From Mobula hypostoma (taxonomy: Eukaryota): a stretch of DNA of 64,000 nt. Where the stretch lies: NCBI RefSeq assembly GCF_963921235.1, contig NC_086097.1, positions 95,234,001 to 95,298,000 on the forward strand, given 5' to 3'. Below are positions 3,801 through 62,684 of the stretch, piece after piece. The notes below the pieces were generated by a model. That model was not told the DNA's origin and searched no databases. It saw only the letters and a program-made list of their open reading frames with translations. Each line of letters opens with the position of its first letter. Positions within the stretch are counted from its first letter, which is position 1. The position numbers and the translations under genes are program-made.

Positions 3801-4571
3801 CAACTAATTAATTCTACCTCTAGGTATGGTTCACACTTTCAGCACATCTCATGCACTATAACACGGTCATTGTTACTCTGGAAGTATAAGCAGCAGCTGC
3901 ACTGCACAAAGTGAGCTTCTACAAAGAACAATGAGATAACGGAAAGACTTTGAGCTTGAAACTAACACTTTTTCCTCTTCACAGGTGCTGACTGGCCTGC
4001 AGAGCATTTAGACCATTTACTTGCTTTACTTCAGACTTCCAGCAGTTGCAGTGTTGTCCTTCACCATGGAAAAAAATAACCTATTTACTTGTTTTCAAGA
4101 TATTGCCATGGCATCTTTTACAGCTACCTGATCGAGATGATAGATGCTCAATATCTCGTCAGATGAGGACTGCATCTTCAACAGTGCAACACTCTTTCTG
4201 CCTGGGATGGGTCTTAACACTGATTCAGAAGTGCTATCCAGGGATGTAATTGGACAGTACTTGCCACCCATGGACCCAACCCACCTAAACTCACCAAGGC
4301 CTAACATGGTCCAATTTCACGGACCTTCTGCGCTAATGAAGCAGACATCTAAGATGCAATGAGCTCTCAGCAGTGATTCAGCCTCACATGACATGGTATC
4401 ACATTAATGATCTTTGATTGAGGAAAGAAAAAGGAGAGGTTTATCTTCCGTCAATGCTGGAAGATTTTTAAAATAGGTTTTAAGTGTCTCTGATATTCAT
4501 TATGTGATGCATATAATTAATAAATAAATAGGATGAAATAAACATTCATAATGCAATAAAAGCTAAAGTAA

Positions 4572-5113
4572 GAGAAAATCTGCAGATGCTGGAAATCCGA
4601 GCAACACACACAAAATGCTGGAGGAACTCAGCAGGACGGGCAGCATCTATGGAATAGAGTACAGTCAATGCTTTAGGCCGACCCTTCATCAGGACTGGAG
4701 AAAGAAAGATGAGGAGTCAGGATTAGAAGGTGGTGGGGGGGGGGAGGGGAGAAAGAAACACAAGGTGATAGGTGAAGCTGGGGTGGGGTGTGACGTAAAG
4801 AGCTGGGAAGCTGATTGGTGAAAGAGATAACAGGCCGGAGAAGGTGGGGGGTGGATCTTATAGGAGAGGATAGAAGGCCATGAAAGAAAGAAAAGGGGGA
4901 GGAGCAGCAGAGGGGAGGTGATGCCCGGGTGAGGAGACAAGGTGAGAGAGGGAAAAGGGGATGGGGAATGGTGAAAAGGGGGGGGGGGGCTTACCTGAAG
5001 TTCGAGAAATTGATGTTCATGCCATCAGGCTGGAGGCTACCCAGATGGAATATAAGGTGTTGCTCATGCAACCTGTGTGTTACCTCATCGCAACAGTAGA
5101 AGAGGCCATCAAC
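4572..5113 (-). mobile_element. Penelope-like element 3' end (left arm of composite)
   Basis: PLE terminus TCTGCAGATGCTGGAAAT...AAAATGCTGGAGGAACTCAGC, purine-rich UTR on this strand, end of GIY-YIG region homologous to 49700-49795. Confidence 0.9.
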
Positions 5114-6045
5114 TGAAACTCTCAACTCTCTTAAATTCAGCAGTGTTGCTGTAAACAGGAGCATGTGCAATCCCCCTTCGCTTCCTGAAGTCAGTGACCA
5201 GCTCCATTTGGTATGTTGAAATTGAGGAAAAGATTGTTGTCATGACAACATGTCACTAGCTCTCTACCACCTTCCTGTATTCCAATCATTGTTATTTGAG
5301 ATATGACCCATACATTGATATCATCTGCAAACTTGTCGATGAAGTTAGAGCAAAATCTGGCCATGCAGTCGTGAGTGTCGAGACAGTAGAATAGGGGCTG
5401 AGGATACAGCCTTGTGGGCACTAGTGTTGAGGATAATCATGGTGGATGTCTTGCTGCCTACCCTTACTGTTTGCACTCTATGGGTCAGGAATCCACCATT
5501 AGTGTGGAAGTGAGTTTACTTGGAATTGTGGTATTGAAGATGGAGCTAGACTCAATAAATAGTGGTCTAACATGCGTGTCTTTACTGTCCAGAAGGTGCA
5601 GAGGTAAGTGAGGGGCAGGGAGATGGCCCCTGCTGTAAACCTGTTTCGGTGGTTGGTGAATTGCTGTTGGTCATGGTTGTCATGGAGGCCGCAGTTATTG
5701 TGCGCCATGATCAGTCTCTCAAAGTACTTCATGATGGTGGATGTCAGAGCCACTGGGCGGTAGTCATTAAGGAACTTAATAACTGCAGTACCATGATACC
5801 TAATGACTAACATTAAGTTGCCATGGTTGAAATCAGCAAGCTGAGTACAGACTGGGAATGAAGTTTTGGTCCTTCTGATCTTCACTGAGTCTGCAGTGGT
5901 ATAACCCACTGAACTTTAGTTTAGATGTAAACACCTCTTAATCTTTGCTGACACCTTTGGTGTGGTACTGCAGGAGGATGACAGTAGTCACCTCCTTATG
6001 ACTTACACTGAGACCCCTGTGCTCATTTTATAAGTGGTTGCAAAA
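5114..6045 (-). repeat. Inverted copy of ~7063-8019 (unique DNA plus Rex1/Babar fragment)
   Basis: Reverse complement match; ORFs 5499..5909(-) and 7201..7614(+) translate almost identically; ~22-nt deletion in this copy near 5503. Confidence 0.95.
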
Positions 6046-6049
6046 CGTA

Positions 6050-6498
6050 GTCATCAACATGTCAGTCGATAGCCTCCTCCACTGTCGCGATGAGGCCATA
6101 CTTAGGTTGGAGGAGTAACACCTTATATTCCATCTGGATAGCCTCCAACCTGATGTCACGAACATCGATTTCTCAAACTTCTGGTAATGGCCCCCCCCTC
6201 CACCACCCTCTCTCACTTCATCACCCGCCCATCAGCTCCCTTTCGTGCTCCTCCTTCTTTCTCCAACCCTGGACCCCTTTCACCAATCAACTTACTACCT
6301 CTTTACTTCCACCCCCCCCCACAGACCGGTTTCACCTATCACTTTGTGTTTCTCCCTTCCTCCTCCCACCTTCTAACCCTGACTCCTCATCTTTTTTCTC
6401 CAGTCCTGCTGCAGGGTCTCGGCCGAAAACGTCAACTATACTCTTTTCAATAGATGCTGCCTGCCCTGCTGAGTTCCTCCAGCACTTCGTGTGTGTTG
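6050..6498 (+). mobile_element. Penelope-like element 3' end (right arm of composite)
   Basis: GIY-YIG C-terminal coding remnant, CT-rich UTR, terminus GCTGCCTGCCCTGCTGAGTTCCTCCAGCAC...GTGTGTTG. Confidence 0.9.
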
Positions 6499-7337
6499 AC
6501 TGTACTAAAGTAAACATATTTAAAATTACACACGTTCTCTGTTTCCAGGTCCAGAGTCTCCAATGCAGGATTAGTGAGGTAAAATACGAAGTATTCTCAG
6601 CAAATCTGGACTCAACCACTGGAGCAAGCCTTGGACCTCAAGTAGGAATGGCTAAATGTCAGCAATTTCTCTTGGAAGCAATGGCTCTACTGACAATATT
6701 TGGCCCGAAGTGACTCTGAAACAGTTTGGATATCCCCAAGGATGTTATAGTAGATGAAAATCTTTTGACATACAGTCACGGTTAGTCTCTAGGTTAAAAA
6801 GGGCAGCCAATACGTGGTCGGCAAATTTACCCAGTGACCACTGAGAATATTCTTTTAGGAGATATACTTGCACATTCAAATGAAATGAAGTATGAGGAGA
6901 ACATGGGGAAATAGCACTGAGTTAGATCAGTCATGAATGCAGAGCAGATTCAAAGGGACAAATTTCCTATTTCCACACTTTCCTCCCATATTTCTTAATA
7001 ATTATCCTATTTTTAGCTGGGGAGAGCTTATTTTATTTCTTTAATATCCTTTAGTGAGATCCTTTGAAACCACTTGCAAAATGAGCACAGGGGCCTCAGT
7101 GTAAGTCATAAGGAGGTGACTATTGTCGTCCTCCTGCAGTACCACACCAAAGGTGTCAGCAAAGATTAAGAGGAGGTGTTTACATCTAAACTAAAGTTCA
7201 ATGGGTTATACCACTGCTGACTCAGTGAAGATCAGAAGGACCAAAACTTCATTCCCAGTCTGTACTCAGCTTGCTGATTTCAACCATGGCAACTTAATGT
7301 TAGTCGTTAGGTATCATGGTACTGCAGTTATTAAGTT

Positions 7338-14700: not shown

Positions 14701-15083
14701 GAATCCATCTTTGGTTCCTCAGAGATGGGCTTTATTGTCAAATGCACTTCAGGAAAAACTTGTCCATCTGCTAAGTCATTTCCTAACAATAGAGAAACAT
14801 CATTCACAGGTAAACTGGGTTGTAGTCTTACTTTAACAGGTCCTGTAACTAACCCTGACCTTAAATTTACTTTATGCAAAGCACTCCCAACACCTCGTAT
14901 ATAGTTTACCTCCCCAATGTCAGACTCATCACTAAACTTCAGAACACTGTCTAACATAAGTGACTGAAAAGCTCCAGTATCCCTAAGGATTTTTATTGGC
15001 ACTGGAGTGGATCCCTCTTTCAAGGATACAAATCCTTCGGTTATATCCTTTCTTAACTTGGTCAGACTCTGACAAAACTTCAT
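11745..15083 (-). pseudogene. pol: Disrupted pol: protease, integrase, reverse transcriptase, RNase H
   Basis: ILRDTGA protease (14670..15083); HSMPLGGH...FYWPG...CHTCQ and MDCVG integrase (13306-14301); FCTDYRKVN, PFGM, YIDD RT (12385-13254); LAVDAS, EKELL, NVVADCLSR RNase H (11745..12233); several stops and frameshifts. Confidence 0.92.
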
Positions 15084-15099
15084 TTGTATTTATCGAACC

Positions 15100-16886
15100 C
15101 TGTGGATTTATAGGTGTTTCAATATATGTTGCACACAAGCATCTGGGACTGCCTCCTTCTCTTTCTTCCTCAATCGGAAACAGTTAGCTATTACGTGACC
15201 AGGTTTCTTACAATAATTACAAATAGGACCAAAATGTCTTTCCTTCACATGTTTCCTTTCATCCTTACCTTTCTCACTAACTTCTGATTTAATTTCTGGT
15301 TTACCTTGACTCTCTGTGCTATTTTTCCTTTTAAAAGTTCTACCTGGAGGAAATTTACTCTTGTGGATTAAAGCATACTCATCTGCTAATTATGAGGACA
15401 CACGTCCTCGTTTACTGTCATTTAGAAATGCATGCATTAAAAAATGATACAATGTTCCTCCAGAATGATATCACAAGAAACACAGGACAAACCAAGACTA
15501 AAACTGACAAAAACCACACAATTATAATATATAGTTACAACAGTGCAAAGCAATACCATAATTTGATTAAGAGCAGACCATGGGCACGGTAAAAAAAAGT
15601 CTCAAAGTCCTCATAGCGTCATCATCTCACGCAGATGGTAGAAGGGAGAAACTCTCCCTGCCATGAACCTCTAAGCGCCGCCAACTTGCCGATGCAGCTC
15701 CACTGGAACCAGCCAACCGCAGCGGACTCTGAGTCCGTCAGAAAACTTCAAGCCTTCGACCAGCCTTCGTCACCAAGCACCATCCTCTGCCAAGGGCTTC
15801 GACCCCGCCCTGGTCGCTGAGCAACAAGCAAAGCCGAGGACTCGGGGCCTTCCCTTGTGGAGATTTCTGACCACACAGTAGCAGCAGAAGCGAAGCAGGC
15901 ATTTTAGAGGTTTCACTAGATGTTCCTCCGTGCTCTCATGTCCGTCTCCATAAAATCAGGATTGTGCACGCACCCTACTTGACAGATAACAGATATCACC
16001 ACCGAAGTGGCTGCTGGGAGCTGCGTCGCGCCGTCATCTTCTCCTCTTTAGCAGACTCCTGCAATGTAGCAGTGTCCCTCTCATTTAAGTATGTCCTTAC
16101 TTCAACAGAGATGCTCCTTTTAAATTCCTCCATTAAAATCAAATCTTCTAATTTATTATACTCCCCATTCACATTTTTAGAGGAAACTCATCGCTCAAAA
16201 CACACAGATTTACCATAGGCAAATTCCACGCAAGTTTTTTCCACAGATTTCTTCAAATTTCTTAATCTTTCTCTATAAGTTTCTGGAACCAGTTCATATG
16301 CTTTCAGTATATGCTGCTTCACAATATCATGATCAAGTATTTGCTCAGCAGTTAAAGCTGTATAAACTTGTTGTGCCTTACCTTTAATTACACTTTGTAA
16401 CATCACTGGCCATTTCTCTTTCATTAAATGGAGGAGCCAATATAACTTCCTGACTAGCAACAAACTGTTTCCAGAACCAGGGGACTGATTCTCCATGGTT
16501 AATTTCTCCATTGCTAGCTCAAATTCCCTCTTTTTATCTGCTTCTCTAGCTTCAAATTCCTTCTGTTTATCTGCTTCTTTAGCTTCGAATTCCCTTATCG
16601 TAATGGCTTCTCTTTCGGCCACCTCCGCTTTAAGTAATTCCAACATTATCTGTTCACTATGTAATTGCATCTCTAGATTACTCATTGGAAACATATCTAA
16701 CACTTCTTCATCAAAACCACCCGACTCTTTATAGTATGCCGCAATTTTTCTCTGAATTACTGGCTTTGTTGTAACCTTCGTAATTCCTTTAAGGTCCAAC
16801 CTTTTAGCAATCTCAGATACATCACCCTTTTTCGCCTTCGCTAATAATTCCGGGTCTGGCGATGCCTTAAACTCGTCAATATTCAT
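15100..16886 (-). pseudogene. gag: Disrupted gag with SCAN-like capsid region and CCHC zinc knuckle
   Basis: WPVMLQSVIKGKAQ...KAYELVPETYRERLR (16188..16886); CNYCKKPGHVIANC read at ~15180-15222; interrupted by 15390-16046. Confidence 0.85.
15390..16046 (-). mobile_element. Non-autonomous LINE-derived element inserted in gag
   Basis: gag frame LQESAK/LADEY rejoins across it; GC-rich head GAGGAGAAGATGACGGCGCG; Rex1/Babar-like tail ending GAGGACGTGTGTCCTCATA. Confidence 0.75.
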
Positions 16887-16991
16887 TGCTGCCGAATATC
16901 ACCCACAGACCAATCAAACAAAAGAATCGAGTATTTCCCTTTTCCAAATCAGATTGATAATTAAACAAGCACTTAAGCTCAAAATCGGAAC

Positions 16992-29360: not shown

Positions 29361-29950
29361 ACCCTAAGTAAAAGACTGTGACCATTCACTTTAATTCTAT
29401 GCCAGAAGATTTTATAACCCACTGTAAGGTCACACCTCAGCCTCCTTCGCTGTAGGGAAAACATCCCAGTCTATCTATTCTCTCCTTATTACTCAAATTC
29501 CTCATCCAAGCGAATCTTTTCTACAATCTCTCCAGTTTAATCTCATCCTACTTATTGCATGGCAACCAGAACTGCACACCATATTCCAGGCATGGCCTCA
29601 ACCAACATCCTTTACAACTGTAACATGATGCCCTAACTCTTGTACTCAATGTGTCCAATGAAGCCATTTGCCTTCTTTACCACCTTGTCCACCTGTGTCA
29701 CCACTTTCTGGGAACTATGTAGTTGTACTCCCAAGATCTTGTAATTCACTTGTCTGCCCTACACTGGTTTTCTTTCCCAAAATGCATCATTTCACACTTG
29801 TCTGAATTAAATTCCATCTGCCATTCGTTTGCCCACTTTCCCAATTATTCTAAATCCTGTTGTAGCTTTAAGCAACCTTTTAAACTGTTCACCATATCAT
29901 TAATTTTAGTGTCATCCCCAAACTTACAAATCATCCCACTCACACTCTGA
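29361..29950 (-). mobile_element. CR1 fragment, continuation of 25825-26155
   Basis: Minus-strand WQMEFNSDKCEMMHFGK motif near 29770-29825; further CR1 remnant at ~32675-33005. Confidence 0.75.
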
Positions 29951-29954
29951 TTCA

Positions 29955-32670
29955 AAATGTTGCAGGCCTACTACCTGCATACAGACAGAGCCTAAAAAGC
30001 AAGGCTCCAGTGATCAAGACATCTAAGAGGTGGTCGCAGGAGGCAGCAGAATGGTTACAGGATTGCCTTAAGCCAATGGACTACGCCATGTTCAAGCACT
30101 CATCTGAGGATCTGTATGACTACACCAGGGTTGTAACAGACTTTATTAAAATAGCTGTTGATGAGTATATCCCTATGAAATCATTCAGGGTTTACCCCAA
30201 TCAAAAGCCCTGGATGAACCATGAAATCTGCAATTTGCTGAGAGCGAGATCAGAGGCATTCAAGCCTGAAGATCAAGAATGCTACAAGGGGTGCAGGGAT
30301 GAGCTCCAGAAAGCCACCTCACAGGCGAAATGGAGATTCCCGACTAGACTGGAATAAACGAAGAATGCTCAACAGGTACGGCAGGATTTGAATGCCATAA
30401 CTTCCTACGAAGTTAAATCTAGTGACATGGGGACAGCAGAGCTTCACTTCCAGATGAGCTCAATGCCTTCTATACTCACTTTGACCACCAGATCAGAAAG
30501 GAACCATCGTGCACCTCACACATCTCCCGGTGATCCTTTGATTTCAGTATCTGAAGTTGACATGCAGGCTGCCTTCAAGAGAGTAAATCCAAAGAAAGCA
30601 TCTGGTTTGGACAGAGTACCTGGCCGAGTACTGAAGACCTGTGCCAACTAATAAGCCAGTGTGATCTTATCAACCTCTTGCTTCAGTAGTGTGTGGTATC
30701 CACTTGCTTCAAGCAGCTTCAATCATAGCGGTGCCCAAGAAGAGGGTGTTACCTGAGTCTTGATTACCTGACTGACAGACCACAGTAGGTGTGCTTGCAG
30801 CACTGTGTGTCCGACAGAGTGATCAGCAGCACTGGGGCTACACAGGGGACTGTTTTGTCTCCCTTTCTCTTCACCATTTACACCTCGGACTTCAACTACT
30901 GCACAGAGTCTTGTCATCTTCAGAAGTTTTCTGTTGACTCTGCCATAGTTGGATGCATCAGCAGGGAAGATGAGGCTGAGTACAGGGCTACGGTAGGAAA
31001 CTTTGTCACATGGTGTGAGCAGAATTATCTGCAGCTTAATGTGAAAAAGACTAAGGAGCTGGTGGTAGACCTGAGGAGAGCTAAGGTACCGGTGACCCCT
31101 GTTTCCATCCAGGGGGTCAGTGTGGACATGGTGGAGGATTACAAATACCTGGGGATACGAATTGACAATAAATTGGACTGGTCAAAGAACACTGAGGCTG
31201 TCTACAAGAAGAGTCAGAGCCGTTTCTATTTCCTGAGGAGACTGAGGTCCTTTAACATCTGCCGGACGATGCTGAGGATGTTCTATGAGTCTGTAGTGGC
31301 CAGTGCAATCATGTTTGCTGTTTTGTGCTGGGGCAGCAGGCTGAGGGTAGCAGACACCAACAGAATCAACAAACTCATTCGTAAGGCCAGTGATGTTGTG
31401 GGGATGGAACTGGACTCTCTGATGGTGGTGTCTGAAAAGAGGATGATGTCCAAGTTGCATGCCATCTTGGACAATGTCTCTCATCTACTACATAATGTAC
31501 TGGTTGGGCACAGGAGTACATTCAGCCAGAGACTCATTCCACCGAGATGCAACACAGAGCGTCATAGGAAGTCATTCCTGCCTGTGGCCATCAAACTTTG
31601 CAACTCCTCCCTTGGAGGGTCAGACACCCTGAGCCAATAGGCTGGTCCTGGACTTATTTCCTGGCATAATTTACATATTACTATATAATTATTTATGGTT
31701 TTATTACTATTTAATTATTTATGGTGCAACTGTAACGAAAAACAATTTCCCCCGGGATCAATAAAGTATGATTATGACTACTATTATCCTGCCTCACTTA
31801 CATCCACAGTGACGAAGTGCTTTGAGAGGGTGAATTTGAAACATATCAGCTCCTGACTGAATGGCGACTTGGATCCGCTCTAATTTGCCTACTGAAGCAA
31901 CAGGTCCACAGCAAATGCCATGTCATTAGCTCTTCACACAACCCTGGAACACCTGGACAGCAAAGAGGCATATATCAGGATGCTCTTTATTGATTACAGT
32001 TCAACATTTAAACCCATCAAACCCTCAAAACTAATCAGTAAACTCCAAGACCTGGGCCTCAATACCCCTTTGTGCAATTGCATCCTATATTTCCTCATTT
32101 GCAGACCCCAGTCAGTGGCAAAAACACCTCCTCTACAATCTGCATCACAGGTGCAGCACAGGGGTGGGTGCTTAGCCACCTACTCTTCTCACTTTACACC
32201 TATGGCTGTGTGACACTATATTCAAGTTTGATATGGGCCATATCAAGGGTGGTGATAAATCAGCATACAGAGGGAGATTGAAAATTTGGCTAAGTGGTGT
32301 CATAACAACAACCTCTCACCAACTGTCAACAAAATCCAGGAGCTGATTATAGACTTCAGGAGAGGGAAACCAGAGATTCATAAGCCAGTACTCAATGGAG
32401 GAGCAAAAGAGGATAACTACACTCATTCTATTTCTGGTGTTCCCGCAATCAATGATCTCACTTTAAGGACTCTTTATCTTGTTATCTTATACTCTCGTTA
32501 TTTATTACTTTTAATTTATACTTGCATTTGTAAAGCTTGCTGTTCATTGATCCTGTTTACAGTTACTGTTTTATAGATTTGCTGAGTATGCCCACAGGAA
32601 AAAGAATCCCAGGGTTGTATGTAGTGGCATGTATGTACTTTGATAATAAATGTTACTTTGAACTTTTAAT
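29955..32670 (+). mobile_element. Decayed Rex1/Babar LINE interrupted by a second Rex1/Babar copy
   Basis: YPNQKPWMN, KASGLDRVPGRVLKTCAN, then after 31785 LFIDYSSTF, WCHNNNL; tail ATAATAAATGTTACTTTGAACTTT. Confidence 0.85.
30757..31783 (+). mobile_element. Younger 5'-truncated Rex1/Babar LINE nested in the previous element
   Basis: Open 283-aa ORF 30789..31640 (QGTVLSPFLF, KFSVDS with DD motif mutated, KTKELVVD, YFLRRLRSF); tail AATAAAGTATGATTATGACTA. Confidence 0.9.
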
Positions 32671-36399: not shown

Positions 36400-36712
36400 C
36401 TGCAAACAAAAATGAGAATCTTGAAGAACACATGCCAAGATAGAGGAAACTTCATGGAGCTTGGAAAGAAACCTGGAAAGCAATGAATAAATCCAGTTGC
36501 CATGGTTCATCTATGTACAAGTAAAATAGGTAGACATATGGAGGAATTCTTGCTGAAAATGTTACAGAGCATGGCTTCGAGAGGGTAATAAACTCTGAAT
36601 TCTTGTCCAAGCAGAGCCAGAGTTAGAAAATTACTGTTAAAGGGGAGGGATCTGGGAGAGAGGGTAATTTTATGGGACAATGACAGGACCGAATGTGGGA
36701 CAGGAAAGAGCT

Positions 36713-37330
36713 GAACACAAGAGATCCTGCAGATGCTAGAAATTCAGAGAAGCACACACTAAATGCTGGTGGAACTCAGCACGCAAGGCAGCATCTATGG
36801 AAATGAATAAACAATCGACGTTTCAGGCCGAGAGCCTTCATCAGGACTGGAAAAGAAGAGAGAAGCCGCCAGAATAAAGAAGGTTGGGGGAGGGGAGGGG
36901 AGGAGGACAAGCTGGAAGGTGATAGGTAAAGGCAGGTGGGTTGGGGAAGGGGGATGAAGTAAGAAGCTGGAAGGTGATAAGTGGAAAAGGCAAAGCATTG
37001 GAGAAGAAGGGATCTGATAGGAGAGGAGAGTAGATCATGGGAGAAAGGGAAAGAGGTAAGAAGCCAGAGTGAAGGAATGAAGAAGGGGGAAGGGGGAGGA
37101 GAAAAAATTGAGAAATCTATGTTCATGCCATCAGGTTGGAGGCTACCTAGATGAAATATGAGACGTTGCTTCTCCAACCTGAGAGTAGTCTCATCATGGC
37201 AGAAGAGGAGGCCATGAACGTATCAGAACTGGAATGGAGATGGGAATTGAAATGGTTGGTCTCCAGGAAATTCCACTTTTTATGGATGGAGCTGTGGTGT
37301 TTCACAAAGTAGCCCCCCACTCTATGTCAG
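36713..37330 (-). mobile_element. Penelope-like element 3' end
   Basis: EKQRLIFHLGSLQPDGMNIDFS; PLE terminus with tail. Confidence 0.9.
36812..36849 (-). ncRNA. Minimal type I hammerhead ribozyme motif
   Basis: CAGUC-CUGAUGA-AGGC(UCUCG)GCCU-GAAA-CG-UC-GAUUG: intact core, stems I and II, palindromic helix III. Confidence 0.8.
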
Positions 37331-38334
37331 GAAAGAGCTGTGTTGATGGCATAGTCACGGCCTGACTGGACGGGACGCATGTCTTAGCAAATGGGGTGAA
37401 TAGAGAAATGGTAAAGACTTTAAAGCCAGCACAAAATGGTGAAGGACCTTGAAGAAATGCAGCTAGCTAAAATATAAACAAAGAAAAGAAAGCATCAGAA
37501 AGAGGGAGGGTGTTGATGGCTAGAGCACAAAGTTAAAGGAATCTAAAAAGACAATTAACCATAAAGGAAAAGTAAATTCTGGAAAAATGTGTTAAAACTC
37601 TCCGTACAGTGATGCACAAAATGTGATAAATGGGGCTTGACGGCAAAGTGCGCGAGGGAGGAACAAACATGTTGAGAGCACGGAGTCATGGTTACAGAAA
37701 AAATAGAATTTGAAGTGAACCATTGCTGGGTATTACATATTCACAAAAGAGATAAAAAGTAGGTGAAACAGCTGTACTTAATAGGGATAACATAATGGCA
37801 GTAGAAAACCACCGAGCCATAAGAAGGACAAAAAAGGAGTTCATATGATCCAAAGTGCAATGTGTCCATGGATAGACATATAGGATAATAAAGGATCAAG
37901 CACACTAACAGACAAAATAAACACTGACTTTCAATAAGTTCAATTAATGGATAATGCGAAGGAGATTAGATTACAACATTTTCTAAAATTATGGCAGCCA
38001 AAATTACACATGCAGTACTTGTACCTGCCATTGTTATTAAACACACACACCAAGCGACCACAGACATCAACAGGTGACCCAATCAAATGGTGTAGTTTGA
38101 GGGATACATAATGAAAGAGAGCACTAACAATAATTTGTGTAACTTGTTTATATCAAAACGATGCCAATAACCATCGGCTTTAAAGTCTACAGCTTTACAT
38201 TGACTGATCTTTCATGTATTGTGATCAACAATCACCCCTTTTTTTCTTTACAGACGCCTTTCACTTTGCAGACTATGATTGTTTCCTCATACATTATCTT
38301 ACATTTATATCCACAGTAAACTCTTCTTTTACTC

Positions 38335-38460
38335 AAAGCCACACACATAAAATGCTGGAGGAACTCAGCAGGCCAGGCAGCATCTACGGAAAAGAGTAAA
38401 CAGTCGATGTTTTGCACCAAGGCCCTTTATCAGGACTAGAAACAAAGAGAAGTCAGAGTC
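38335..38460 (-). mobile_element. Short Penelope terminus with degenerate hammerhead
   Basis: CACACATAAAATGCTGGAGGAACTCAGCAGGCCAGGCAGCATC. Confidence 0.8.
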
Positions 38461-38696
38461 CTATCCTCATTCCTGTTTTACTCACTATGCTTAATTCTTC
38501 TAAACCCCATAGATTACTGCTAATCTTCTTTCTGCTCTACAGTCATACAGTGTCTGTCATTTATAAATTTGTTAACATGCTATAAACTTCTGGCATCTTG
38601 CCCCATATCACCCACAAGCATTGTGAACAGCAAAGATCTAAAACAGATCCCAATGAATCAACTCTGAATACTGCATCTCCATTAACTCTTGTTTAC

Positions 38697-38736
38697 TACA
38701 GGAGAAGATCTGCAGATGCTGGAAATTCGAGCAACA
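38697..38736 (-). mobile_element. Penelope tail-only insertion between direct repeats
   Basis: GATCTGCAGATGCTGGAAATTCGAGCAAC flanked by AACTCTTGTTTAC at 38684, 38737 and 38762. Confidence 0.75.
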
Positions 38737-40494
38737 AACTCTTGTTTACAATAGATCCATAAACTCTTGTTTACTGTCATTTCCTGTCAATTTTCAATCC
38801 TCTTAGATAAAATATTATCGATTTAATGGCCTTGATGATGCCTCTTTTAGCTCTGGCATATGAAGTGCAGAACAGGCTGAGAGAAAGGGGAAAATCCTTT
38901 GGAAATCTATCAGTGCATAACAAAATTCATGGATCAGCTTTCCTCCCATCATTGTATAAATGTTAGCCCAATGTGTCACTAACATATACATGCACAGAAT
39001 AGTTCAGTGAACAGTTGTACACAGTTAAATATCACCCACTGAAATGTACAAGACTTGGCAGACTAACTACAACAATTATAATAATCTATGAACCAGCTGG
39101 TACAGTCCATACAAGTGTGTAGACAGCCTCCTGCATAATCAATAGGCATCATATTTTAAAATCACTGTTAAAGTCAAGCAATAGTGACAGCGGTTTCACA
39201 GTTGAACTGCTAAATAGATTCCTTCCATGCACTACATATGATTAAAGGCTGCTCTGGGCCCTTCACTTTGGAACAGAAGGACAAGATGACTAGCAAGTGG
39301 CCTGGTAACTTTAAGCTAAAACAACTCCAGGCTCAATGCAATCACTGAGTGTTAGATCAAGAATTCTTTAATAGTCAAGCAAAGTATAGCAATACTAGAA
39401 GCCTGAAATAAATGCTGAAAATACTGGAATACTCAGCAGATCCGGCAGCCCTTAGAGAGAGATAAACTGAGCTAATGCTTCAGGTCAATGGCCCTTCGTC
39501 AAGTAATTTCCAGTTTTCATGGAAGATCATCAACCTGAAAATGCTAGTTCCATTTCCAGCATTTGCTGATTTTTAGTTCAAACTTTGATGCCTAGCCTGT
39601 ACTAGGAATAGAATATAATCCTAATACAGGCATTACTATTAACAACAAACTGCGTCATTAGAATGCCCTTCCCCAACAAAATGTCCTCACTTCAACCACA
39701 GAAAAACATCTCATGCAACACCCCCACCAACCCCACTCCAATATAGCAGTGTTTTTTTTCTTGTTCTATGTTTGTTCCCAATTATTTTCCAGTAAGTCTG
39801 AGCCAAAAAAGGATCTTATCGATCTCAGTGAACCCAAGGCTACAGGGTGAATCTGAATGTAGCCCTTGCAGTCAACAATCACAAAAGCCTTTCACGTGTG
39901 ACTGAAAGATGATTTCAATTTACTTAGCAAATTCTAACGTCTCCAAAACATCTATTGTACCTTGAAATACTATTTTTACCAGAGTCACTTTGTAATGAAT
40001 GCAATGATCTGGCCAATTTGCCTATAGCTACCTTGCAAAAATCGCAATCATGATCTGGTAGTTTGTTTTGGTGATTTGAATGATGGATAATTACTGGCCA
40101 TTGCACTACTGGTATTGTAATCTACTGTCCTTCATAAATTCAGTGCAGGATCCTTTATATAACAGGTGGTCTGCTGTTCAAAATGTTATCTTAACAAAGG
40201 TAAATTTAGAAACACAAGAGACTACAGAGGTTAGATATTTTGATACATTTAAAAGCATTAGGCCATTCGGCCCCTCAAGCCTGCTATGCCTTTCAATATA
40301 TTCATGACAGATCTGCCCCAGGCCCTATCTCCTCTATTGTGCCAGTTTCCCATGGTTTTCAATTCTATGATTTTTGAAAACAATAACATTATCTACTTCC
40401 TCTTTAAATACCCCCCATGATCTGGCCTCCACAACCCTCCAGGGTAGAGAATTCCAGCGGTTCAACAGCCTCTGTAAGAAGTTCTCATGCACTT

Positions 40495-41510: not shown

Positions 41511-42550
41511 GATAGAAATATGCTGACTCCTTGTGCATAAGTATTGCAACATTCTCTGGCTCTCACAATATCCTCAGGATTGATTGCATATCTTTGAAGT
41601 GGAGTTGAAACTAATTACAGCCACTCACCACCCATAACTGTGCCTGGGCTGAGAGTCAAAAAGTACCATCAAAATAATGATGAAGGAAAATCCAAACAGA
41701 AAATGCAGATGTTGGAGATCTGTAATAAAAACGGAAAACACTGTAAACATTCAGCAGGTCAGGAAGTGTCCATGGAAAAAGAAACAGAAGTACGGCTTCA
41801 GGTCTGAGACCTTTTGCAAGTCTAACACAGGGTGTGAAACATTCACTGTGTTTCTCCTGCTACAGATGCTGCAGACCTGCAGAGTGTTTCTAACATTTTT
41901 GTTTTTATCTGAGGTGGAAAAAATCTCCTTTTGATGACATATTAGAATTCGCTCTCAACAAGAGGTCCGTTCTGTTTGTGTGTCATGTGGCATGAACATG
42001 TATTTACTTAAGTCTAAGAAATACAATCTATCAACATCAACAATACTGCCAAAATGAGTAGAGGATTCAATCAGAGTAATTTTGCTCCAAAGTCAAAACA
42101 GGCTGAATTCATTCACCTTAAAGTCATGGGGTCGAGAGAGAGGATGTTCTATGCAACTTGTGCAAGAAAAGTACATAATCAGACAATACAGTTCCCTGCA
42201 CAGAGGTAAATCACGTTTCTGCCTAAGCCTGTACCAAATCAGGGTGTTACCATGTGCTGAATTGGCTTGGGAACCGGCAATGCCAAGAAATTCAAGAGTT
42301 ATGAAAGCAAAGCAATCATGTCTGATTTTATGGTGTGTACATAAAGGCTCACAATTTCTGCAGTTTTCTCTGGAGTATCCCTTTCATTCTTACATTATCC
42401 TTTAATTCCCCAGAACATTGCTGTTTGATTAATCTTCTTCAGTTCTGTGGATCTAACTCCACTTCAAAGATATGCAATCAATCCTGAGGATATTGTGAGA
42501 GCCAGAGAATGTTGAAATATTTATGCACAAGGAGTCAGCATATTTCTATC
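41511..42550. repeat. 96-bp inverted repeat pair (41511-41606 and 42455-42550)
   Basis: GATAGAAATATGCTGACTCC...GAAGTGGAGTT is the near-perfect reverse complement of 42455-42550. Confidence 0.95.
41693..41909. mobile_element. Old Penelope-terminus fold-back
   Basis: Left AAATGCAGATGTTGGAGATC...CAGCAGGTCAGG versus right ACAGATGCTGCAGACCTGC...CATTTTTGTTTTTAT. Confidence 0.6.
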
Positions 42551-47324: not shown

Positions 47325-47600
47325 ACATACACAAGATGCCGGAGGAACTCAGCAGGTCAGGAAGCATCTATGAAAAAGAATAAATAGTGAAAGTTTCTGG
47401 CTGAGACCACCCTCCTCCCCACACCTGTTTATTCTAATTGGGGCCTCCTCTACCTTCCTTTCCTGTGCTGATAAAGAGTCACAGCTCAAAACATCGATTG
47501 TCTATTCCCTTCCATCGATGTTGCCTGATCTGCTGAGCTCCTCCAGCATTTTAATGCATTATTCTGGATCTCCAGCATCTGTTGAATCTTGTGTTTATAA
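47325..47600. mobile_element. Penelope-terminus fold-back, older
   Basis: Inverted PLE termini, short left and long right; degenerate TSD GTTGCCCTTTAA (47313) / GCTGTCCTTTAA (47601). Confidence 0.7.
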
Positions 47601-48458
47601 GCTGTCCTTTAAGTTTTTATTAAATCTTTCTCTTCTTACCTTAACCTATGCCTCCAGTTCTAGATTTTCCAATGCTGGGGAAAAATACTGAGTGCACTCA
47701 TCCAATCCATGCCTTTTATAATTGTTACACCTCTGAAAAAATCACTCTTGAATACCTATGCTCAGAGGAAAAAAAATCCTATCCAGTCCAAGCTCTCCCT
47801 ATAACTCACTCTCTCAAACACACCTTTTCTCCACTCTTTCCAGTTTAATAACACTGTTCTTGTAGCAGGGTGACCAAAACTGAACACAACATTTCAAGTG
47901 CTTCAACAGCCACCAGTAAAGGCAACAAGATTGGATTGATAACTCAGCCAAAGGAGAACATTTTCAGGAAAGCAGTACTTTTCCGGGACTATGCTAGTGT
48001 TTGCTTCGATAATCCATCCACACTTGGTCTTCCCTGCATTCCACAAATGCAGTCAACACTTAACTTCCTCCTCTTTAGGGTAGCCTCGCATAGTCAATAA
48101 ATACTGATATTGCCAGCAGCATTCTCACTTCTTTTATTTCCTGTTATTATTTCTGATTTCCAGCACCTGAAGTTTTCTGCTTGTGGATAAATCAACTAAA
48201 ATTGGGTGCATTCATTCTAAAGCAAGTTCTTTATAGAAAGAGATCAAAATTATGCACCTAACAATGGCAAGGCACTCCTTTTATTCTAATGAATAATAAC
48301 AATATCAGGATTTGTACTGGGCACATCACGTTTTGTAGTCATGGTTCCACTAAAAAATTCTTGGTCAAATGCAGCAAAGGTTAAATAAAGAGTAAAGCGC
48401 CACACATAAAAGTTGCTGGTGAACGCAGCAGGCCAGGCAGCATCTCTAGGAAGAGGTG

Positions 48459-48496
48459 CAGTCGACGTTTCAGGCCGAGACCCTTCGTCAGGACTA
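48459..48496 (-). ncRNA. Minimal hammerhead ribozyme motif
   Basis: UAGUC-CUGACGA-AGG(GUCUCGG)CCU-GAAA-CG-UC-GACUG. Confidence 0.8.
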
Positions 48497-49468
48497 ACTG
48501 AAGGAAGAGTGAGTAAGGGATTTGAAAGTTGGAGGGGGAGGGGGAGGGGGAGATCCAAAATGATAGGAAAAGACAGGAGGGGGAGGGATGGAGCCAAGAG
48601 TTGGACAGGTGATAGGCAAAAGGGATAAGAGAGGATCATGGGACAGGAGGTCCAGGAAGAAAGACAAGGGGTGGGGGGGGGATCCAGAGGATGGGCAAGG
48701 GGTATATTCAGAGGGACAGAGGGAGAAAAAGGAGAGTGAGAGAAAGAATGTGTGCATAAAAATAAGTAACAGATGGGGTACGAGGGGGAGGTGGGGCATT
48801 AGCGGAAGTTAGAGAAGTCAATGTTCATGCCATCAGGTTGGAGGCTACCTAGACGGAATATAAGGTGTTGTTCCTCCAACCTGAGTGTGGCTTCATCTTT
48901 ACAGTAGAGGAGGCCGTGGATAGACATGTCAGAATGGGAATGGGATGTGGAATTAAAATGTGTGGCCACTGGGAGATTGCCCCTTCTCGCAGTTCCTTCG
49001 TGTCCGCCGCATCCACTCTCAGGATGAGGCTTTTCATTCTAGGATGAGGGAGATGTCTTCCTTTTTTAAAGAAAGGGGTTCCCTTCCTCCACTATCAACT
49101 CTGCTCTTAAATGCATCTCCCCCATTTCACGTACATCTGCTCTCACTCCATCCTCCCGCCACCCCACTAGGAATAGGGTTCCCCTGGTCCTCACCTACCA
49201 CCCCACCAGCCTCCGGGTCCAACATATTATTCTCCGTAACTTCCGCCACCTCCAACGGGATCCCACCACTAAGCACATCTTTCCCTCCCCCGCTCTCTCT
49301 GCATTCCGCAGGGATCGCTCCCTACGCAACTCCTTTGTCCATTCGTCCCCCCCATCCCTCCCCACTGATCTCCCTCCTGGCACTTATCCGTGTAAGCGGA
49401 ACAAGTGCTACACATGCCCTTACACTTCCTCCCTTACCACCATTCAGGGCCCCAAACAGTCCTTCCAG

Positions 49469-49795
49469 GTGAGGCAACACTTCACCTGTGAGTCGGCTGG
49501 GGTGATATACTGCGTCCGGTGCTCCCGATGTGGCCTTTTATATATTGGCGAGACCCGACGCAGACTGGGAGACCGCTTTGCTGAACATCTACGCTCCGTC
49601 CGCCAGAGAAAGCAGGATCTCCCAGTGGCCACACATTTTAATTTTACATCCCATTCCCATTCTGACATGTCTATCCACGGTCTCCTCTACTGTAAAGATG
49701 AAGCCACACTCAGGTTGGAGGAACAACACCTTATATTCCGTCTGGGTAGCCTCCAACCTGATGGCATGAACATTGACTTCTCTAACTTCCGCTAA
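49469..49795 (+). pseudogene. Penelope GIY-YIG endonuclease domain (ORF C-terminus)
   Basis: VIYCVRCSRCGLLYIGETRRRLGDRFAEH...LEEQHLIFRLGSLQPDGMN. Confidence 0.92.
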
Positions 49796-50094
49796 TGCCC
49801 CACCTCCCCCTCATACCCCATCTGTTACTTATTTTTATACACACATTCTTTCTCTCACTCTCTTTTTTCTCCCTCTGTCCCTCTGAATATACCCCTTGCC
49901 CATCCTCTGGGTCCCCCCCCTCCCCGCCCTTGTCTTTCTTCCCGGACCTCCTGTCCCATGATCCTCTCTTATCCCTTTTGCCTATCACCTGTCCAGCTCT
50001 TGGCTCCATCCCTCCCCCTCCTGTCTTCTCCTATCATTTTGGATCTCCCCCTCCCCCTCCAACTTTCAAATCCCTTACTCACTCTTCCTTCAGT

Positions 50095-50132
50095 TAATCC
50101 TGACGAAGGGTCTCGGCCTGAAACGTCGACTG
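50095..50132 (+). ncRNA. Minimal hammerhead ribozyme motif (weakened stem I)
   Basis: UAAUC-CUGACGA-AGG(GUCUCGG)CCU-GAAA-CG-UC-GACUG. Confidence 0.7.
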
Positions 50133-50649
50133 CACCTCTTCCTAGAGATGCTGCCTGGCCTGCTGCATTCACCAGCAACTTTTATGTGTGTTGCTTGAAT
50201 TTCCAGCATCTGCAGAATTCCTGTTGTTTGAAGAGTAAAGCTCCCTTTGTTATGTCTTATCAAACATTTCTGAAACTGTGTACAGCAGCTTACATAATAT
50301 CCCCCTTGATACACAATTGAGACATTCTTTTTATTACAAATACAAGCCATTGTAGTGGTTTTTCTCAAATGGCATCTGAATTTATTGGGACCATAGGGAA
50401 TTTACAGGGAATTTTATGATCCATTCCCAATCAAATCATTCCAACAAGCCACAGAAAGATAACTGTAATTAGATCAACAAAACAATCTGCTGGAGGAACT
50501 CAGCAGGTCAAGGAGCATCTGTGGAAGCTTTCATCAATCTGGTTATATATAAATCTCAAATTAACAGCACAAAGAGTCTCAAAGTCACTGCATCACCTAG
50601 TTCCTCTTTCCAGAGTATCTTTCTATCAGTTATTTCAATCCAGAGCATC

Positions 50650-51155
50650 AGAAGAAGAATAAGATTTATTTTCACTGCCTTGTATGACATGACATTTGGT
50701 GTGGCAACAGTACTGTGCAAAGAAATGAAATTACTATAAATTACAAAATAAATAAGTAGTGCAAAAAAAAAGGAATAATGAAATAGTGTTCTTGGGTTCA
50801 TGAACTTAAATCTAATGACAGAGGGTAAGGAGCTGTTCCTGAATTGTTGAATGTCAGTTTTCAGGTTCCTACACCTCCACCCCAGCAGCAGTAATGAGAA
50901 GAGGCCATGTCCTGGATGGTGAGGACACTAAATGACGATGCTCCCTTCCTGAGGCACAGATTTTTAAAGAGATCTGTGCTTGTGGTGGATCTGGCTGAGT
51001 CGACAGCCCTCTGCAGCCTCTTGCGTTCCTGTGCATGGGAACCTCCTTAACAGCTGTGATCCCACCCGTCAGAATGCCCTCTATAATGTTTGTAAGAGCC
51101 CTTTATGACATAAGGAATCTCCGCAAACTTCGTGATTGCATCATCATGCATGTAA
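50650..51155 (-). mobile_element. Rex1/Babar 3' fragment
   Basis: Similar to 9395-10070 and 40495-41100. Confidence 0.7.
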
Positions 51156-51581: not shown

Positions 51582-53070
51582 TCAAACCTGAGGAAATCTG
51601 AAGATGCTGGAAATTCAAGCAACACACACAAAATGCTGGTAGAATGCAGCAGGCCAGGCAGCATCTCTAGGAAGAGGTACAGTCGAAGTTTCGGGCCGAG
51701 ACCCTTTGTCAGGACTAACTGAAAGAAGAGATAGTAAGAGATTTGAAAGTGGGAGGGGGAGGGGTGGAGCCAAGAGCTGGACAGGTGATAGGCAAAAGGG
51801 ATACAAGGCTGGAGAAGGGAGAGGATCATGGGACAGGAGGCCTAGGGAGAAAAAAGGGGGAGGGGAGCACCAGAGGAAGATGGAGAGCAGGCAAGGAGTA
51901 ATTGTGAGAGGGACAGAGAGAGAAAAAAGGTGGGGGGGGAGAGATAAATAAGTAAATAAATGGGATGGGGTAAGAAGGAGAGGAGGGGCATTAACGGAAG
52001 TTAGAGAAATTAATGTTTATGCCATCAGGTTGGAGGCTACCCAGACAGAATAGAAGGTGTTGTTCCTCCAACCTGAGTGTTGCTTCATCTTGACAGTAGA
52101 GGAGGCCATGGATAGACATGTCAGAATGGGAATGAGACGTGGAATTAAAATATGTGGCCACTGGGAGATCCTGCTTTCTATGGCAGACAGAGTGTAGGTG
52201 TTCGGCGAAACGGTTTCCCAGTCTGCGTCGGGTCTCACCAATATATAGAAGGCCCCCCTGGGAGCACTGGACGCAGTATATCACACCAGTGGACTCACAG
52301 GTGAAGTGTCGTCTCACCTGTAAGGACTGTCTGGGGCCCTGAATAGTGGTGAGGGAGGAAATGTAAGGGCAGGTGTAGCACTTGTTTCGCTTACAAGGAT
52401 AAGTGCTAGGAGGGAGATCAGTAGGAAGGGATGGGGGGTACGAATGGACAAGGGAGTCACGTAGGGAGCGATCCCTGCAAAAAGCAGAAGGTGGGGAGAA
52501 GAAAAGATGTGCTTGGTGGTGGGATCCCATTGGTGGTGGCGGAAGTTACGGAGAACTACATGTTGGACCCAGAAGCTGGTGGGGTGGTAGGTGTGGACAA
52601 GGGGAACCCTATCCCCAGTGGGGTGGTGAGAGGACAGGGTGACAGCAGATGTGCGTGAAATGGGAGAGACGCGTTTGCGAGCAGAGTAGATGGTGGAGGA
52701 AGGGAAGCCCCTTTCTTTAAAACAGGAAGACATCGCCTTTGCCCTGGAATGAAAAGCCTCATCCTGAGAGCAGATGCGGTGGAGACGGAGGAATTGCGAG
52801 AAGGGGATGGCATTTTTGCAAGAGACAGGGTGGGAAGAGGAATAGTATAGGTAGCTGTGACAGTCCATAGGCTTATAATAGACATCAGTATATAAGCTGT
52901 CTCCAGAGATAGAGACGGAAAGATCAAGAAAGGGGAGGGAGGTGTCGGAAATGGACCAGGTAAATTTGAGGGCAGGGTGAAAGTTGGATGCAAAGTTAAT
53001 GAAGTCAACGAGCTCAGCATGCATGCAAGAAGCAGCGCCAATGCAGTTGTTTATGTAGCGAAGGAAGAGT
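51582..53070 (-). mobile_element. Penelope element left arm (RT C-terminal half, GIY-YIG, 3' end with tail)
   Basis: FLRYINNCIG, LPFLDL, DVYYKP, IPFSQFLRL (52314..53090); VIYCVQC...YIGET (51991..52530). Confidence 0.93.
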
Positions 53071-55128
53071 GATCTCAGCGGGTCTACCAACCCCAGGCAT
53101 ATTCAAAACCCGGACTCCAGCGCCATCAATGCGGGTTCCAACGACAATGGACACCTTCAAACCGATTGTGCAGCCTCCAACTGCGACTCCAGCCTTGAAC
53201 TCCAGGCCGGGTCTTCACATGCTGCTATTGTGACTCCCGTCTCCCCTTCCCCCACCACTACTCTGCAACCCCGTCTCCCTCAGATCCCATCGTCAGGTCC
53301 TGGGCCCTCAGAGGCTCCATCTTCCTCTCACCCCAACCCTCCCCTCTCCACTGACACTACCAGCCTGCCCCTCCCCCCTCTGATCCCAGCTCTCATCTGT
53401 GCCAGGTCTTTACCATCCCCTCTGACCTTCAACTCTCTGAGGCAGAGCGCTCTGTCCTCAGTAAGGGCCTTACCTTTGTCCCCCTTCGCCCACACCTCAG
53501 CGAGTTCCGCATGTGGCATGACGCTGAACTCTTCTTCCGCCAGCTGAATCTTCGAGCCTACTTCTTCGGCAAGGACTCTCCCACCCCTACCGATGACCCC
53601 TTCTCCCGTCTTCAACCCTCCTCCTCTTCATGGACACCCTGCTGTGATCTTCTGCCTGCTCTGGATCTCTTTATTGCTAACTGCCGACGGGACATCAACT
53701 GTCTCGACTTCACCACACCTTGTTCCCATTCCAACCTCACTCCTTCCAAACGCTCTGCTCTCCACTCCCTCCGCACTAATCCTAACCTTACTATAAAACC
53801 CGCCGATAAGGGGGGATGCTTTTGTAGTCTGGCGTATTGACCTCTACCTTGCCAAGGCACAGCGACAACTCGCTGATACCTCCTCTTATTTATCCCTTGA
53901 TCATGACCCCACTAAGGAGCACCAGGCCATTGTCTCCCACACCATCTCCAGCCTTATCAGCTCAGGGGATCTCCCATCCACTGCCACCAACCTCATAGTT
54001 CCCACACCCCGACTTCCCGTTTCTACCTCTTACCTAAGATCCACAAACTTGCCTGTCCAGGTAGACCCACTGTCTCAGCTTGCTCCTGCCCCACCAAACT
54101 AATTTCTGCATACCTCGACACTGTTTTATACCCCCTTGTTCAATCCCTTCCCACCTATGTTCATGACACTTCTCACACTCTGAATTTTTCCAATGATTTT
54201 AAGTTCCCTGGCCCTACCGCTTTATTTTCACCTTGGATGTCCAGTCCCTATATACCTCCATCCCCCACCAGGAAGGTCTCAAAGCTCTCTGCTTCTTTTT
54301 GGATTCCAGACCTAACCAGTTCCCCTCTACCACCACTCTCCTCCATCTAGCGAAATTAGTCCTTACTCTTAATAATTTCTTCTTTGGCTCCTTCCACTTC
54401 CTCCAAACTAAAGGTGTAGCCATGGGCACCCGTATGGGTCCCAGCTATGCCTGCCTTTTTGTTGGCTTTGTGGAACAGTCCATGTTCCAAACCTATACTG
54501 GTATCCGTTCCCCACCTTTCCTTCACTACATTGACGACTGCATTGGCGCTGCTTCCTGCACGCATGCTGAGCTCGTTGACTTCATTAACTTTGCATCCAA
54601 CTTTCACCCTGCCGTCAAATTTACCTGGTCCATTTCCGACACCTCCCTCCCCTTTCTTGATCTTTCTGTCTCTATCTCTGGAGACAGCTTATCTACTGAT
54701 GTCTACTATAAGCCTACAGACTCTCACAGCTACTTGGACTATTCCTCTTCCCACCCTGTCTCTTGCAAAACTGCCATGCCCAGTGGCCACATATTTTAAT
54801 TCCACGGTCCCATTCCCATTCTGATATGTCTGTCCATGGCCTCCTCTACTGTCAAGATGAAGCCACACTTGGGTTGGAGGAACAACACCTTATATTTCGT
54901 CTGAGTAACCTCCAACCTGATGGCATGAACATGATTTCTCTAACTTCTGTTAATGCCCCCCCCTTCTTACCCCATCCCATTTATTTATTTATTTCCCCCC
55001 TTTTTTTTTTCCCCTCTCTCTTTTTTCCCTCTCTGTCCCCCTCACAATAACTCCTTGCCTGCTCTCCATCTTCCTCTGGTGCTCCCCTCCCCCTCTCTTT
55101 CTCCCTAGGCCTCCCATCCCATGATCCT
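53071..55128 (+). mobile_element. Penelope element right arm (N-terminus and RT, internal deletion at ~54778, truncated 3' UTR)
   Basis: LTIKPADKGG, DVQSLYTSIP, GVAMGTRMGPSYA, YIDD (54233..54799); jumps to the GIY-YIG end. Confidence 0.93.
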
Positions 55129-62165: not shown

Positions 62166-62431
62166 AGGATTTGTTTGAAAAGGACGCATTGCTAGGATTG
62201 GAGAAGTAGGGTGGGGAGAGAGTAACAACACAAACCACTTCAGCCAAATATCTATTCCCTTGCCATATACTATGCACATACTTGGCCGCAAAGAGCATGC
62301 AATGTGATCAGAGATATAAAAAGGATGAGGTATTTGTAGAATTTCCACCAGCTGTGTCTTAATAGAACAAACTAAAATACACTTTTAAAATACCTCCGGA
62401 TTTTTGATTTCAGACATCACTGAAACATATT

Positions 62432-62621
62432 CACGAGGAAATCTGCAGATGCTGGAAATTCAAGCAACACACACAAAATGCTGGTGGAACGCAGCAGGCC
62501 AGACAGCATCTATAGGAAGAAGCACAGTCGACGTTTCCGGCCCAGACCCTTCGTTAGGACTAGTGCTTCTTTCTATGGCTGCTGTCTGGCCTGCTGCGTT
62601 CCACCAGCATTTTGTGTGTGT
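62432..62621. mobile_element. 190-bp Penelope-terminus hairpin with 15-bp TSD
   Basis: Inverted PLE termini; TCACTGAAACATATT at 62417-62431 and 62622-62636. Confidence 0.92.
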
Positions 62622-62684
62622 TCACTGAAACATATTGGCCTTTTAGACCCTTGAGCCAGTTCTGACACCCAGTCTGATTTAAAG

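What the first reader, a model, noticed from the sequence alone, without database searches (positions are those of the whole stretch)
48388..50241. Recurring asymmetric fold-back architecture of Penelope insertions
Seen: at least five insertions (4572-6504, 41693-41909, 47325-47600, 48399-50230, 62432-62621) have two PLE 3' ends pointing outward. One arm ends at the (TG)n or T-rich boundary and the other carries 30-40 extra nt; exact TSDs of 9, 11 and 15 bp bound three of them. Known: inverted terminal repeats with a short tail are described for Drosophila virilis Penelope. Inference: a stereotyped two-ended priming mechanism using two defined RNA start points; transcripts across these loci would form long dsRNA, and intact copies carry a hammerhead on each strand.
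Basis: partly seen in the sequence, partly recalled or inferred. Interest (0 to 1): 0.72.

Follow-up and report, generated by a model that had tools for sequence, protein, structure and literature searches.

The report
Two-armed Penelope-type retrotransposon insertions
These mirror-image insertions are broken copies of a known kind of jumping gene (a Penelope-like retrotransposon) in what is probably a ray, laid down in a layout already described for the class, likely because both cut DNA ends start a copy of the element's RNA at two fixed points about 35 bases apart.

Summary
Five head-to-head pairs of Penelope-like element (PLE) 3' ends lie where stated, and each has the 30-40 nt tail on one arm only. 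Exact TSDs of 11, 9 and 15 bp bound three; the two old pairs have none above chance. The focal element is a 1,251-nt 5'-truncated copy (RT end, GIY-YIG, Neptune-type cysteine linker) behind a 579-nt inverted tail-less copy, about 97% identical.

The layout is in print for endonuclease-bearing PLEs generally, not only Drosophila Penelope. So are hammerheads on opposite strands, and two RT start sites bracketing the tail were shown in vitro (Frangieh 2024). Both target ends priming on the RNA is the likeliest route but is inferred; snap-back self-priming remains open. Only 1 of 5 pairs keeps two intact hammerhead cores. dsRNA is predicted, not shown. Related contigs support a fixed tail end; the short end was not resolved.

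Extras: a 40-nt tail-only insertion, and an unexplained match of breakpoints between two neighbouring elements. This scan has noted the architecture before (103 notes, at least 14 genomes). Verdict: real, a new member of a known kind.

The parts
48388..48398 (+). Locus A: left target-site duplication, 11 bp
   Evidence: exact match to 50231-50241
48399..48977 (-). Locus A: inverted, 5'-truncated arm (579 nt) without tail; covers the end of the GIY-YIG coding part, 3' UTR and hammerhead
   Evidence: 15 substitutions and 11 gap columns against the right arm in 584 columns
48458..48497 (-). Locus A: minimal hammerhead motif of the left arm, core intact, stem I 5 of 6 pairs
   Evidence: descriptor scan after PMC4209133; activity not tested
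48978..48979 (.). Locus A: inversion junction; 2 extra bases inside a possible 4-nt inverted microhomology
   Evidence: compared with the uninterrupted copy at 51582-53066
48980..50230 (+). Locus A: main 5'-truncated copy (1,251 nt) with tail
49070..49795 (+). Locus A: 241-codon open frame: region after the RT core, CX4CxxC linker, GIY-YIG endonuclease with CCHH; a frameshift lies just upstream
   Evidence: (PF01541 E=1e-4)
50094..50133 (+). Locus A: minimal hammerhead motif of the right arm, core intact, stem I 4 of 6 pairs; predicted cut after 50127
50191..50230 (+). Locus A: tail (34-40 nt, depending on how a 4-nt overlap with the TSD on the other arm is counted)
   Evidence: 542, 418 and 84 contigs of three runs leave the element at 50230
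50231..50241 (+). Locus A: right target-site duplication
4563..6513 (.). Locus B: tailed left arm 4572-5113 (-), captured inverted copy of 7063-8019 at 5114-6044, tail-less right arm about 6058-6504 (+), 9-bp TSD
62417..62636 (.). Locus E: tailed left arm 62432-62563 (-), tail-less right arm 62564-62621 (+), 15-bp TSD; the junction lies at the two strands of hammerhead stem I
41693..41909 (.). Locus C: old pair of the T-rich subfamily, tail on the left arm, no TSD above chance
47325..47600 (.). Locus D: old pair, tail on the right arm, no TSD above chance
51582..55128 (.).
36701..37340 (-). Solo tailed copy G with 13-bp TSD and an intact hammerhead core
38327..38484 (-). Solo tail-less copy H with a possible 9-bp TSD (null 9%)
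38684..38749 (-). Tail-only insertion T (40 nt, 38697-38736) between 13-bp direct repeats; a third repeat copy starts at 38762

Best explanation
These are broken insertions of a Neptune-type Penelope-like retrotransposon, each made of two 5'-truncated copies joined head to head, and they likely form when both 3' ends of a staggered cut in the chromosome prime reverse transcription of the element's RNA, one at the tail end and one about 35 nt inside it. Shown here: the layout, the TSDs, the one-sided tail, the family. Shown in vitro for a related Poseidon element: both strands are cut and extended, and RT starts at two sites that bracket the tail. Inferred: the endonuclease, probably as a dimer, nicks the two strands 9-15 nt apart; each 3'-OH primes a cDNA from the same source RNA or a sister transcript; both cDNAs stop early; their 3' ends join through 0-4 nt of microhomology; gap filling makes the TSD. 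Where only one end primes on RNA, a solo copy with or without tail results. The hairpin shape, the second hammerhead and any dsRNA are likely by-products.
For: Geometry: in A, B and E each arm's RNA-3' end abuts one TSD copy in the orientation a target-primed cDNA would have. In A and E the arms are each other's nearest neighbours among 18 ends compared, and both E arms carry a variant seen in about 10% of summed contig depth in run X1 and less in X5 and X10 (50134 A>G), so they share a source or subfamily. The short end also occurs alone (H with a possible 9-bp TSD; 50472-50526), so it behaves as a start site in its own right. A 40-nt insertion consists of the tail only and stops at the short-end position. 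In F the tail is on the shorter arm, which simple snap-back does not predict. The tail end is fixed in many family copies: hundreds of contigs leave the element there, and summed depth falls about 44-fold between adjacent 10-nt bins. PMC11167929: both strands cut and extended, two start sites, predicted dimer.
Against: No intermediate, empty site or active copy was seen. In 5 of 5 complete pairs the tail is on the longer arm, as snap-back predicts. F, the counter-example, lacks its right end and a TSD. C and D have no TSD and arms only 61-67% alike. B's arms differ far more (102/123) than its captured centre differs from its donor (896/931; p=2e-7), so B was altered later or built from two unlike RNAs. 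A fixed short end was not among the loose-end rows shown for related contigs (1,901 and 814 rows not shown). The in vitro work is on a Poseidon, not a Neptune, element, and the parts read do not report an inverted product.
Confidence: 0.6

Rival explanations
1. Snap-back self-priming: one cDNA is primed at the tail end, stops, folds back on a short inverted match within itself, and copies itself outward until it halts near the (TG)n point and joins the other target end.
For: Self-priming is the printed explanation for inverted PLE structures (PMC3846280 Discussion; there on an antisense template). The tail is on the longer arm in 5 of 5 complete pairs (lengths of A, B, C, E; D). Junctions of A and E sit at short inverted matches: a possible 4 nt in A, the two strands of hammerhead stem I in E.
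Against: Gives no reason for a stop at a point that is also an RT start site in vitro and the end of solo copies. F has the tail on its shorter arm. The A junction match is no stronger than 27-33% of random window pairs.
Confidence: 0.25
2. L1-style twin priming on one partial-tandem transcript: the second primer starts in the upstream pseudo-LTR of the same RNA, so the inverted arm is a copy of the upstream unit and ends at the RNA's 5' end.
For: PLEs are often partial tandems. Five 5' break points of long arms (both B arms, A left, G, and the F deletion) fall within about 130 nt at the end of the coding part (read from the alignment).
Against: No tandem unit exists in the window. Short-arm lengths range from 58 to 579 nt, not one fixed length. 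The L1 model is recalled, not read.
Confidence: 0.1
3. Chance neighbours or later rearrangement: two separate insertions lie side by side, or a DNA-level inversion-duplication made the second arm.
For: PLE ends are dense (19 in 64 kb). C and D lack TSDs and their arms are not each other's best match. B shows that DNA-level inverted copying occurs at these loci.
Against: Single TSDs enclose both arms in A, B and E (null at most 0.5%); head-to-head pairing exceeds shuffles (p=0.003-0.008). It remains possible for C and D only.
Confidence: 0.05

Closest known systems
EN+ PLE insertion unit with inverted 5'-truncated copy and one-sided 30-40 bp tail (Craig et al. 2021, PMC8557442; passages read)
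   Same: Inverted truncated copy at the 5' end, tail at one end only, hammerhead in the terminal part, CCHH GIY-YIG endonuclease.
   Different: No partial tandem in this window. That paper ascribes the tail to endonuclease resolution; TSDs here are clear and not in microsatellites.
Adineta vaga Pen2a_Av and Pen2_Av (Arkhipova et al. 2013, PMC3846280; passages and Discussion read)
   Same: Inverted pLTRs inside one 8-10 bp TSD, optional 31-bp tail on one inverted pLTR, host DNA captured between pLTRs.
   Different: Different clade and host; explained there by self-priming on an antisense template.
PAc, Poseidon element of Anolis (Frangieh et al. 2024, PMC11167929; parts 1-2 of 4 and the text of supplementary figures 1-2 read)
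   Same: Two RT start sites bracketing the tail downstream of a hammerhead; both strands cut and extended; start sites in a stem-loop.
   Different: PAc belongs to the Penelope/Poseidon clade, which lacks the cysteine linker seen here; its loop is AC-rich, this one UG-rich. The parts read give no model for inverted arms.
Minimal PLE hammerheads (Cervera and de la Pena 2014, PMC4209133; passages read)
   Same: Core with no helix III, bulge before helix II, expected to act as dimers; dual motifs on opposite strands 100-700 bp apart already noted.
   Different: 'Shark' does not occur in that text; most cores in this window are decayed.
L1 twin priming (Ostertag and Kazazian 2001; recalled, not read)
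   Same: Both target ends prime on the RNA; inversion joined by microhomology inside one TSD.
   Different: In L1 the inverted part is upstream, non-overlapping sequence; here both arms repeat the same 3' terminus.

Membership tests
Endonuclease-bearing (EN+) PLE | RT followed by a C-terminal GIY-YIG endonuclease | tested here: met
   PF01541 in locus A, PF00078 in locus F; both align in order to a 904-aa RT-GIY-YIG protein at 40-52% identity
Endonuclease-bearing (EN+) PLE | CCHH motif with two cysteines between GIY and YIG | tested here: met
   Read in the 49070-49795 frame; definition
Endonuclease-bearing (EN+) PLE | Minimal hammerhead near the 3' terminus | tested here: met
   Three intact cores in the window (both A arms, G); others decayed. 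Cleavage not tested.
Endonuclease-bearing (EN+) PLE | Inverted 5'-truncated copy, optional 30-40 bp tail, TSD | tested here: met
   5 of 5 pairs with one-sided tail; TSD in 3 of 5
Endonuclease-bearing (EN+) PLE | Partial tandem forming a direct pseudo-LTR | tested here: inconclusive
   No full-length or tandem copy in the window; no genome held
Neptune clade | CX2-5CxxC zinc-finger linker between RT and EN | tested here: met
   CX4CxxC present; shared with Nematis, so not exclusive
Neptune clade | RT groups with Neptune references in a tree | not tested
   No named reference set was on hand; clade call rests on the linker and on the vertebrate host
Neptune clade | Bias for microsatellite targets (a tendency) | tested here: not met
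   None of 5 TSDs is a microsatellite; AT content 46-78% against 58% for the window
Penelope/Poseidon clade | Absence of the CX2-5CxxC linker | tested here: not met
   Linker present
Self-copying fold-back element (MITE-like or retrozyme) | Dispersed or tandem copies of one unit with a shared centre | tested here: not met
   Five pairs of about 190-1,930 nt with different junctions and subfamilies; tested within the window only

The most novel reading that the evidence does not exclude
One RNA is copied twice. A PLE dimer sits on a single transcript with one subunit at each of two nested stems (a repeated CCAGCA strand precedes each start site). The inner subunit leads, the outer follows and displaces its cDNA. 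This forces exactly one tail per pair, makes the tailed arm usually the longer, and leaves tail-only insertions when the leading subunit blocks the follower.
Probability: 0.25. Interest if true: 0.6.

Novelty: new member of a known kind. Interest (0 to 1): 0.3.

Why it matters
How PLEs make inverted ends is still called undefined in the papers read. Abundant, fairly young, TSD-bounded copies in cartilaginous fish make two-ended priming versus snap-back testable by counting alone. This window adds five examples and one tail-only case, too few to settle it; the architecture and the two start sites are not new.

Tried and rejected
No whole genome is held, so the genome-wide catalogue could not be made.

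Rfam scan of the window: no hammerhead family among 5 matches at E<=5, all below gathering score; the hammerheads rest on my descriptor. No solved structure matched the endonuclease frame.

Expression: no RNA holder listed. One run guessed to be RNA has a contig over 50210-50423; its status is a guess and editing cannot be judged without matched DNA, so it is not used either way.

Age: a contig of a second organism matches 26 tail bases joined to the right flank. This hints that A predates their split but is below the tool's 31-base bar.

Short end genome-wide: not among the loose-end rows shown; the depth step there is confounded by sequence differences.

Idea that a strong RNA stem joins A's two junction points: rejected (27-33% of random pairs are as stable; pairing probability 0). 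Idea that A's loop was moved out of F's right arm: not supported (87% to F's left arm against 92-93% between F's arms).

Covariation of the terminal stem: 1 of 16 pairs with a two-sided change in 10 copies, so the structure is not established.

Partners or TSDs for five old solo ends: none above chance.

Literature: 'Penelope + twin priming + inverted' gave 2 listings, neither on this by title or abstract start; 'Penelope + inverted repeat + elasmobranch + retrotransposon' gave 0; two searches gave the papers cited. Subscription papers such as Arkhipova 2006 and Evgen'ev 1997 were not seen, and Fig. S2 and the sequence file of PMC11167929 could not be read; they may hold more on inverted copies.

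Full report
Setting. The window is animal DNA rich in retroelement remnants. The closest named proteins to the focal frame come from rays and sharks (76% Hypanus, 82% over part Mobula, 55-65% carpet sharks), so the host is probably a ray. No whole genome is held.

The focal element (A). Between two exact 11-bp repeats (48388-98, 50231-41) lie an inverted arm of 579 nt and a main copy of 1,251 nt. The main copy starts in the coding part after the RT core and carries a 241-codon frame with a GIY-YIG match. The frame has the CCHH motif and a CX4CxxC linker, which PMC8557442 gives for Neptune and Nematis and not for Penelope/Poseidon. The arms differ by 15 substitutions and 11 gap columns in 584. 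The left arm stops at the (TG)n run; the right arm goes 34-40 nt further. Each arm has an intact minimal hammerhead core, the right one with a weaker stem I.

The other loci. A profile built from 13 window ends found 19 end matches at E<1e-4. All five adjacent outward-pointing pairs within 2 kb are the five named, more than shuffling gives (p=0.008). B and E have 9- and 15-bp TSDs; C and D have none above chance (null: 16 of 3,000 reach 9 bp). All five have the tail on one arm, the longer one. By arithmetic, independent 50:50 choice of start site would give five mixed pairs 3% of the time. Arms are mutual best matches in A (96-97%) and E (95%), about so in B (79-84%), not in C and D. A sixth fold-back, F, has the tail on its shorter arm but has lost its right end. 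Solo copies occur with tail (G, 13-bp TSD) and without (H, possible 9-bp TSD, null 9%). One 40-nt insertion between 13-bp repeats is the tail alone; a third repeat copy nearby makes its exact boundary ambiguous.

Beyond the window. Twenty of 24 listed runs hold part of the stretch, none on record as RNA. I laid five of them on two single-arm stretches. On F's arm 364 and 304 contigs of one run and 323 of another do so within a few bases of the end, and summed depth drops about 44-fold. So the tail end is fixed across the family. A matching peak at the short end was not among the rows shown, so that part of the claim rests on four window copies (A, B, E, H) whose ends fall within about 6 nt in the alignment.

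What is known. PMC8557442 describes an inverted 5'-truncated copy and a 30-40 bp tail often present at only one end as typical of EN+ PLEs. PMC3846280 shows inverted pLTRs inside 8-10 bp TSDs with an optional 31-bp tail and explains the inversions by self-priming. PMC4209133 notes paired hammerheads on opposite strands. PMC11167929 shows in vitro that an anole PLE cuts and extends both strands and starts RT at two sites that bracket the tail; its dimer is predicted. Passages of a 2026 preprint on retrozymes added nothing on inverted copies. Two targeted searches found no paper stating two-ended priming for PLEs, within a library that lacks most subscription papers. Earlier notes of this scan report the same layout and reading 103 times in at least 14 genomes; they are unchecked and not counted as support.

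Mechanism. Each arm meets its TSD as a cDNA primed from a target 3'-OH would. With the in vitro result, the simplest route is a staggered cut whose two ends both prime on the RNA, at different start sites, followed by joining of two short cDNAs. This is inferred (0.6). Snap-back of one cDNA (0.25) explains the tail on the longer arm but not solo short-end copies or F. Twin priming on a tandem RNA (0.1) lacks a tandem here. The terminal region folds into nested stems with the short end inside and the tail as the outer 3' strand, but covariation is nearly absent (1 of 16 pairs), so this is a lead only.

dsRNA and hammerheads. A read-through transcript of A is predicted to form 568 arm-to-arm pairs; nothing here shows it is made. 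Only A keeps two intact cores. One transcript would carry only one of them in sense, buried in the duplex, and minimal hammerheads are expected to need a tandem partner. The second motif is therefore likely a by-product.

Unexplained. F's right arm lacks almost exactly the segment that forms A's loop; both break points agree within a few bases (rough post hoc chance 1e-4 to 3e-4). A shared RNA stem and a transfer from F to A were tested and not supported. B's centre holds a 931-nt inverted copy of nearby DNA that is much less diverged than its arms, likely a later repair at the palindrome centre.

Verdict. Real, and a new member of a known kind. Interest 0.3: the layout and the two start sites are published, and the open mechanistic question needs genome-wide counts that this window cannot give.

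Noticed in passing
window 54776-54779 and 48977-48980: The deletion in F's right arm removes almost exactly the segment that forms A's loop; both break points match within a few bases. A shared stem and transfer of the segment were tested and not supported.
   Followed up: partly
window 5114-6044 and 7063-8019: A 931-nt inverted copy of neighbouring DNA (a LINE-like fragment plus about 280 nt of flank) sits at the centre of fold-back B, 896/931 identical to its donor while B's arms are 79-89% alike; likely a later templated repair.
   Followed up: partly
window 38684-38775: Tail-only 40-nt insertion between 13-bp repeats, followed by 12 nt and a third copy of the repeat.
   Followed up: partly
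window 62555-62570: E's inversion junction joins the two strands of hammerhead stem I, so the short arm begins within about 5 nt of the predicted cut site; one case only.
   Followed up: partly
window 41511-41606 and 42455-42550: A 96-nt inverted pair, 98% identical, encloses old locus C; much less diverged than C's arms; origin unknown.
   Followed up: no
window 39385-39590: Old tailed end with a faint plus-strand match just to its right (5.5 bits); may be a further, decayed fold-back.
   Followed up: no
window 11745-16898: Broken LTR-retrotransposon remnant on the minus strand, in several separate frames, with integrase matches.
   Followed up: no
window 29884-31640: LINE-type remnant with a reverse transcriptase match, in separate frames.
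   Followed up: no
window 50696-50887: A further high-copy repeat just right of locus A, seen as a depth peak in all four runs.
   Followed up: no
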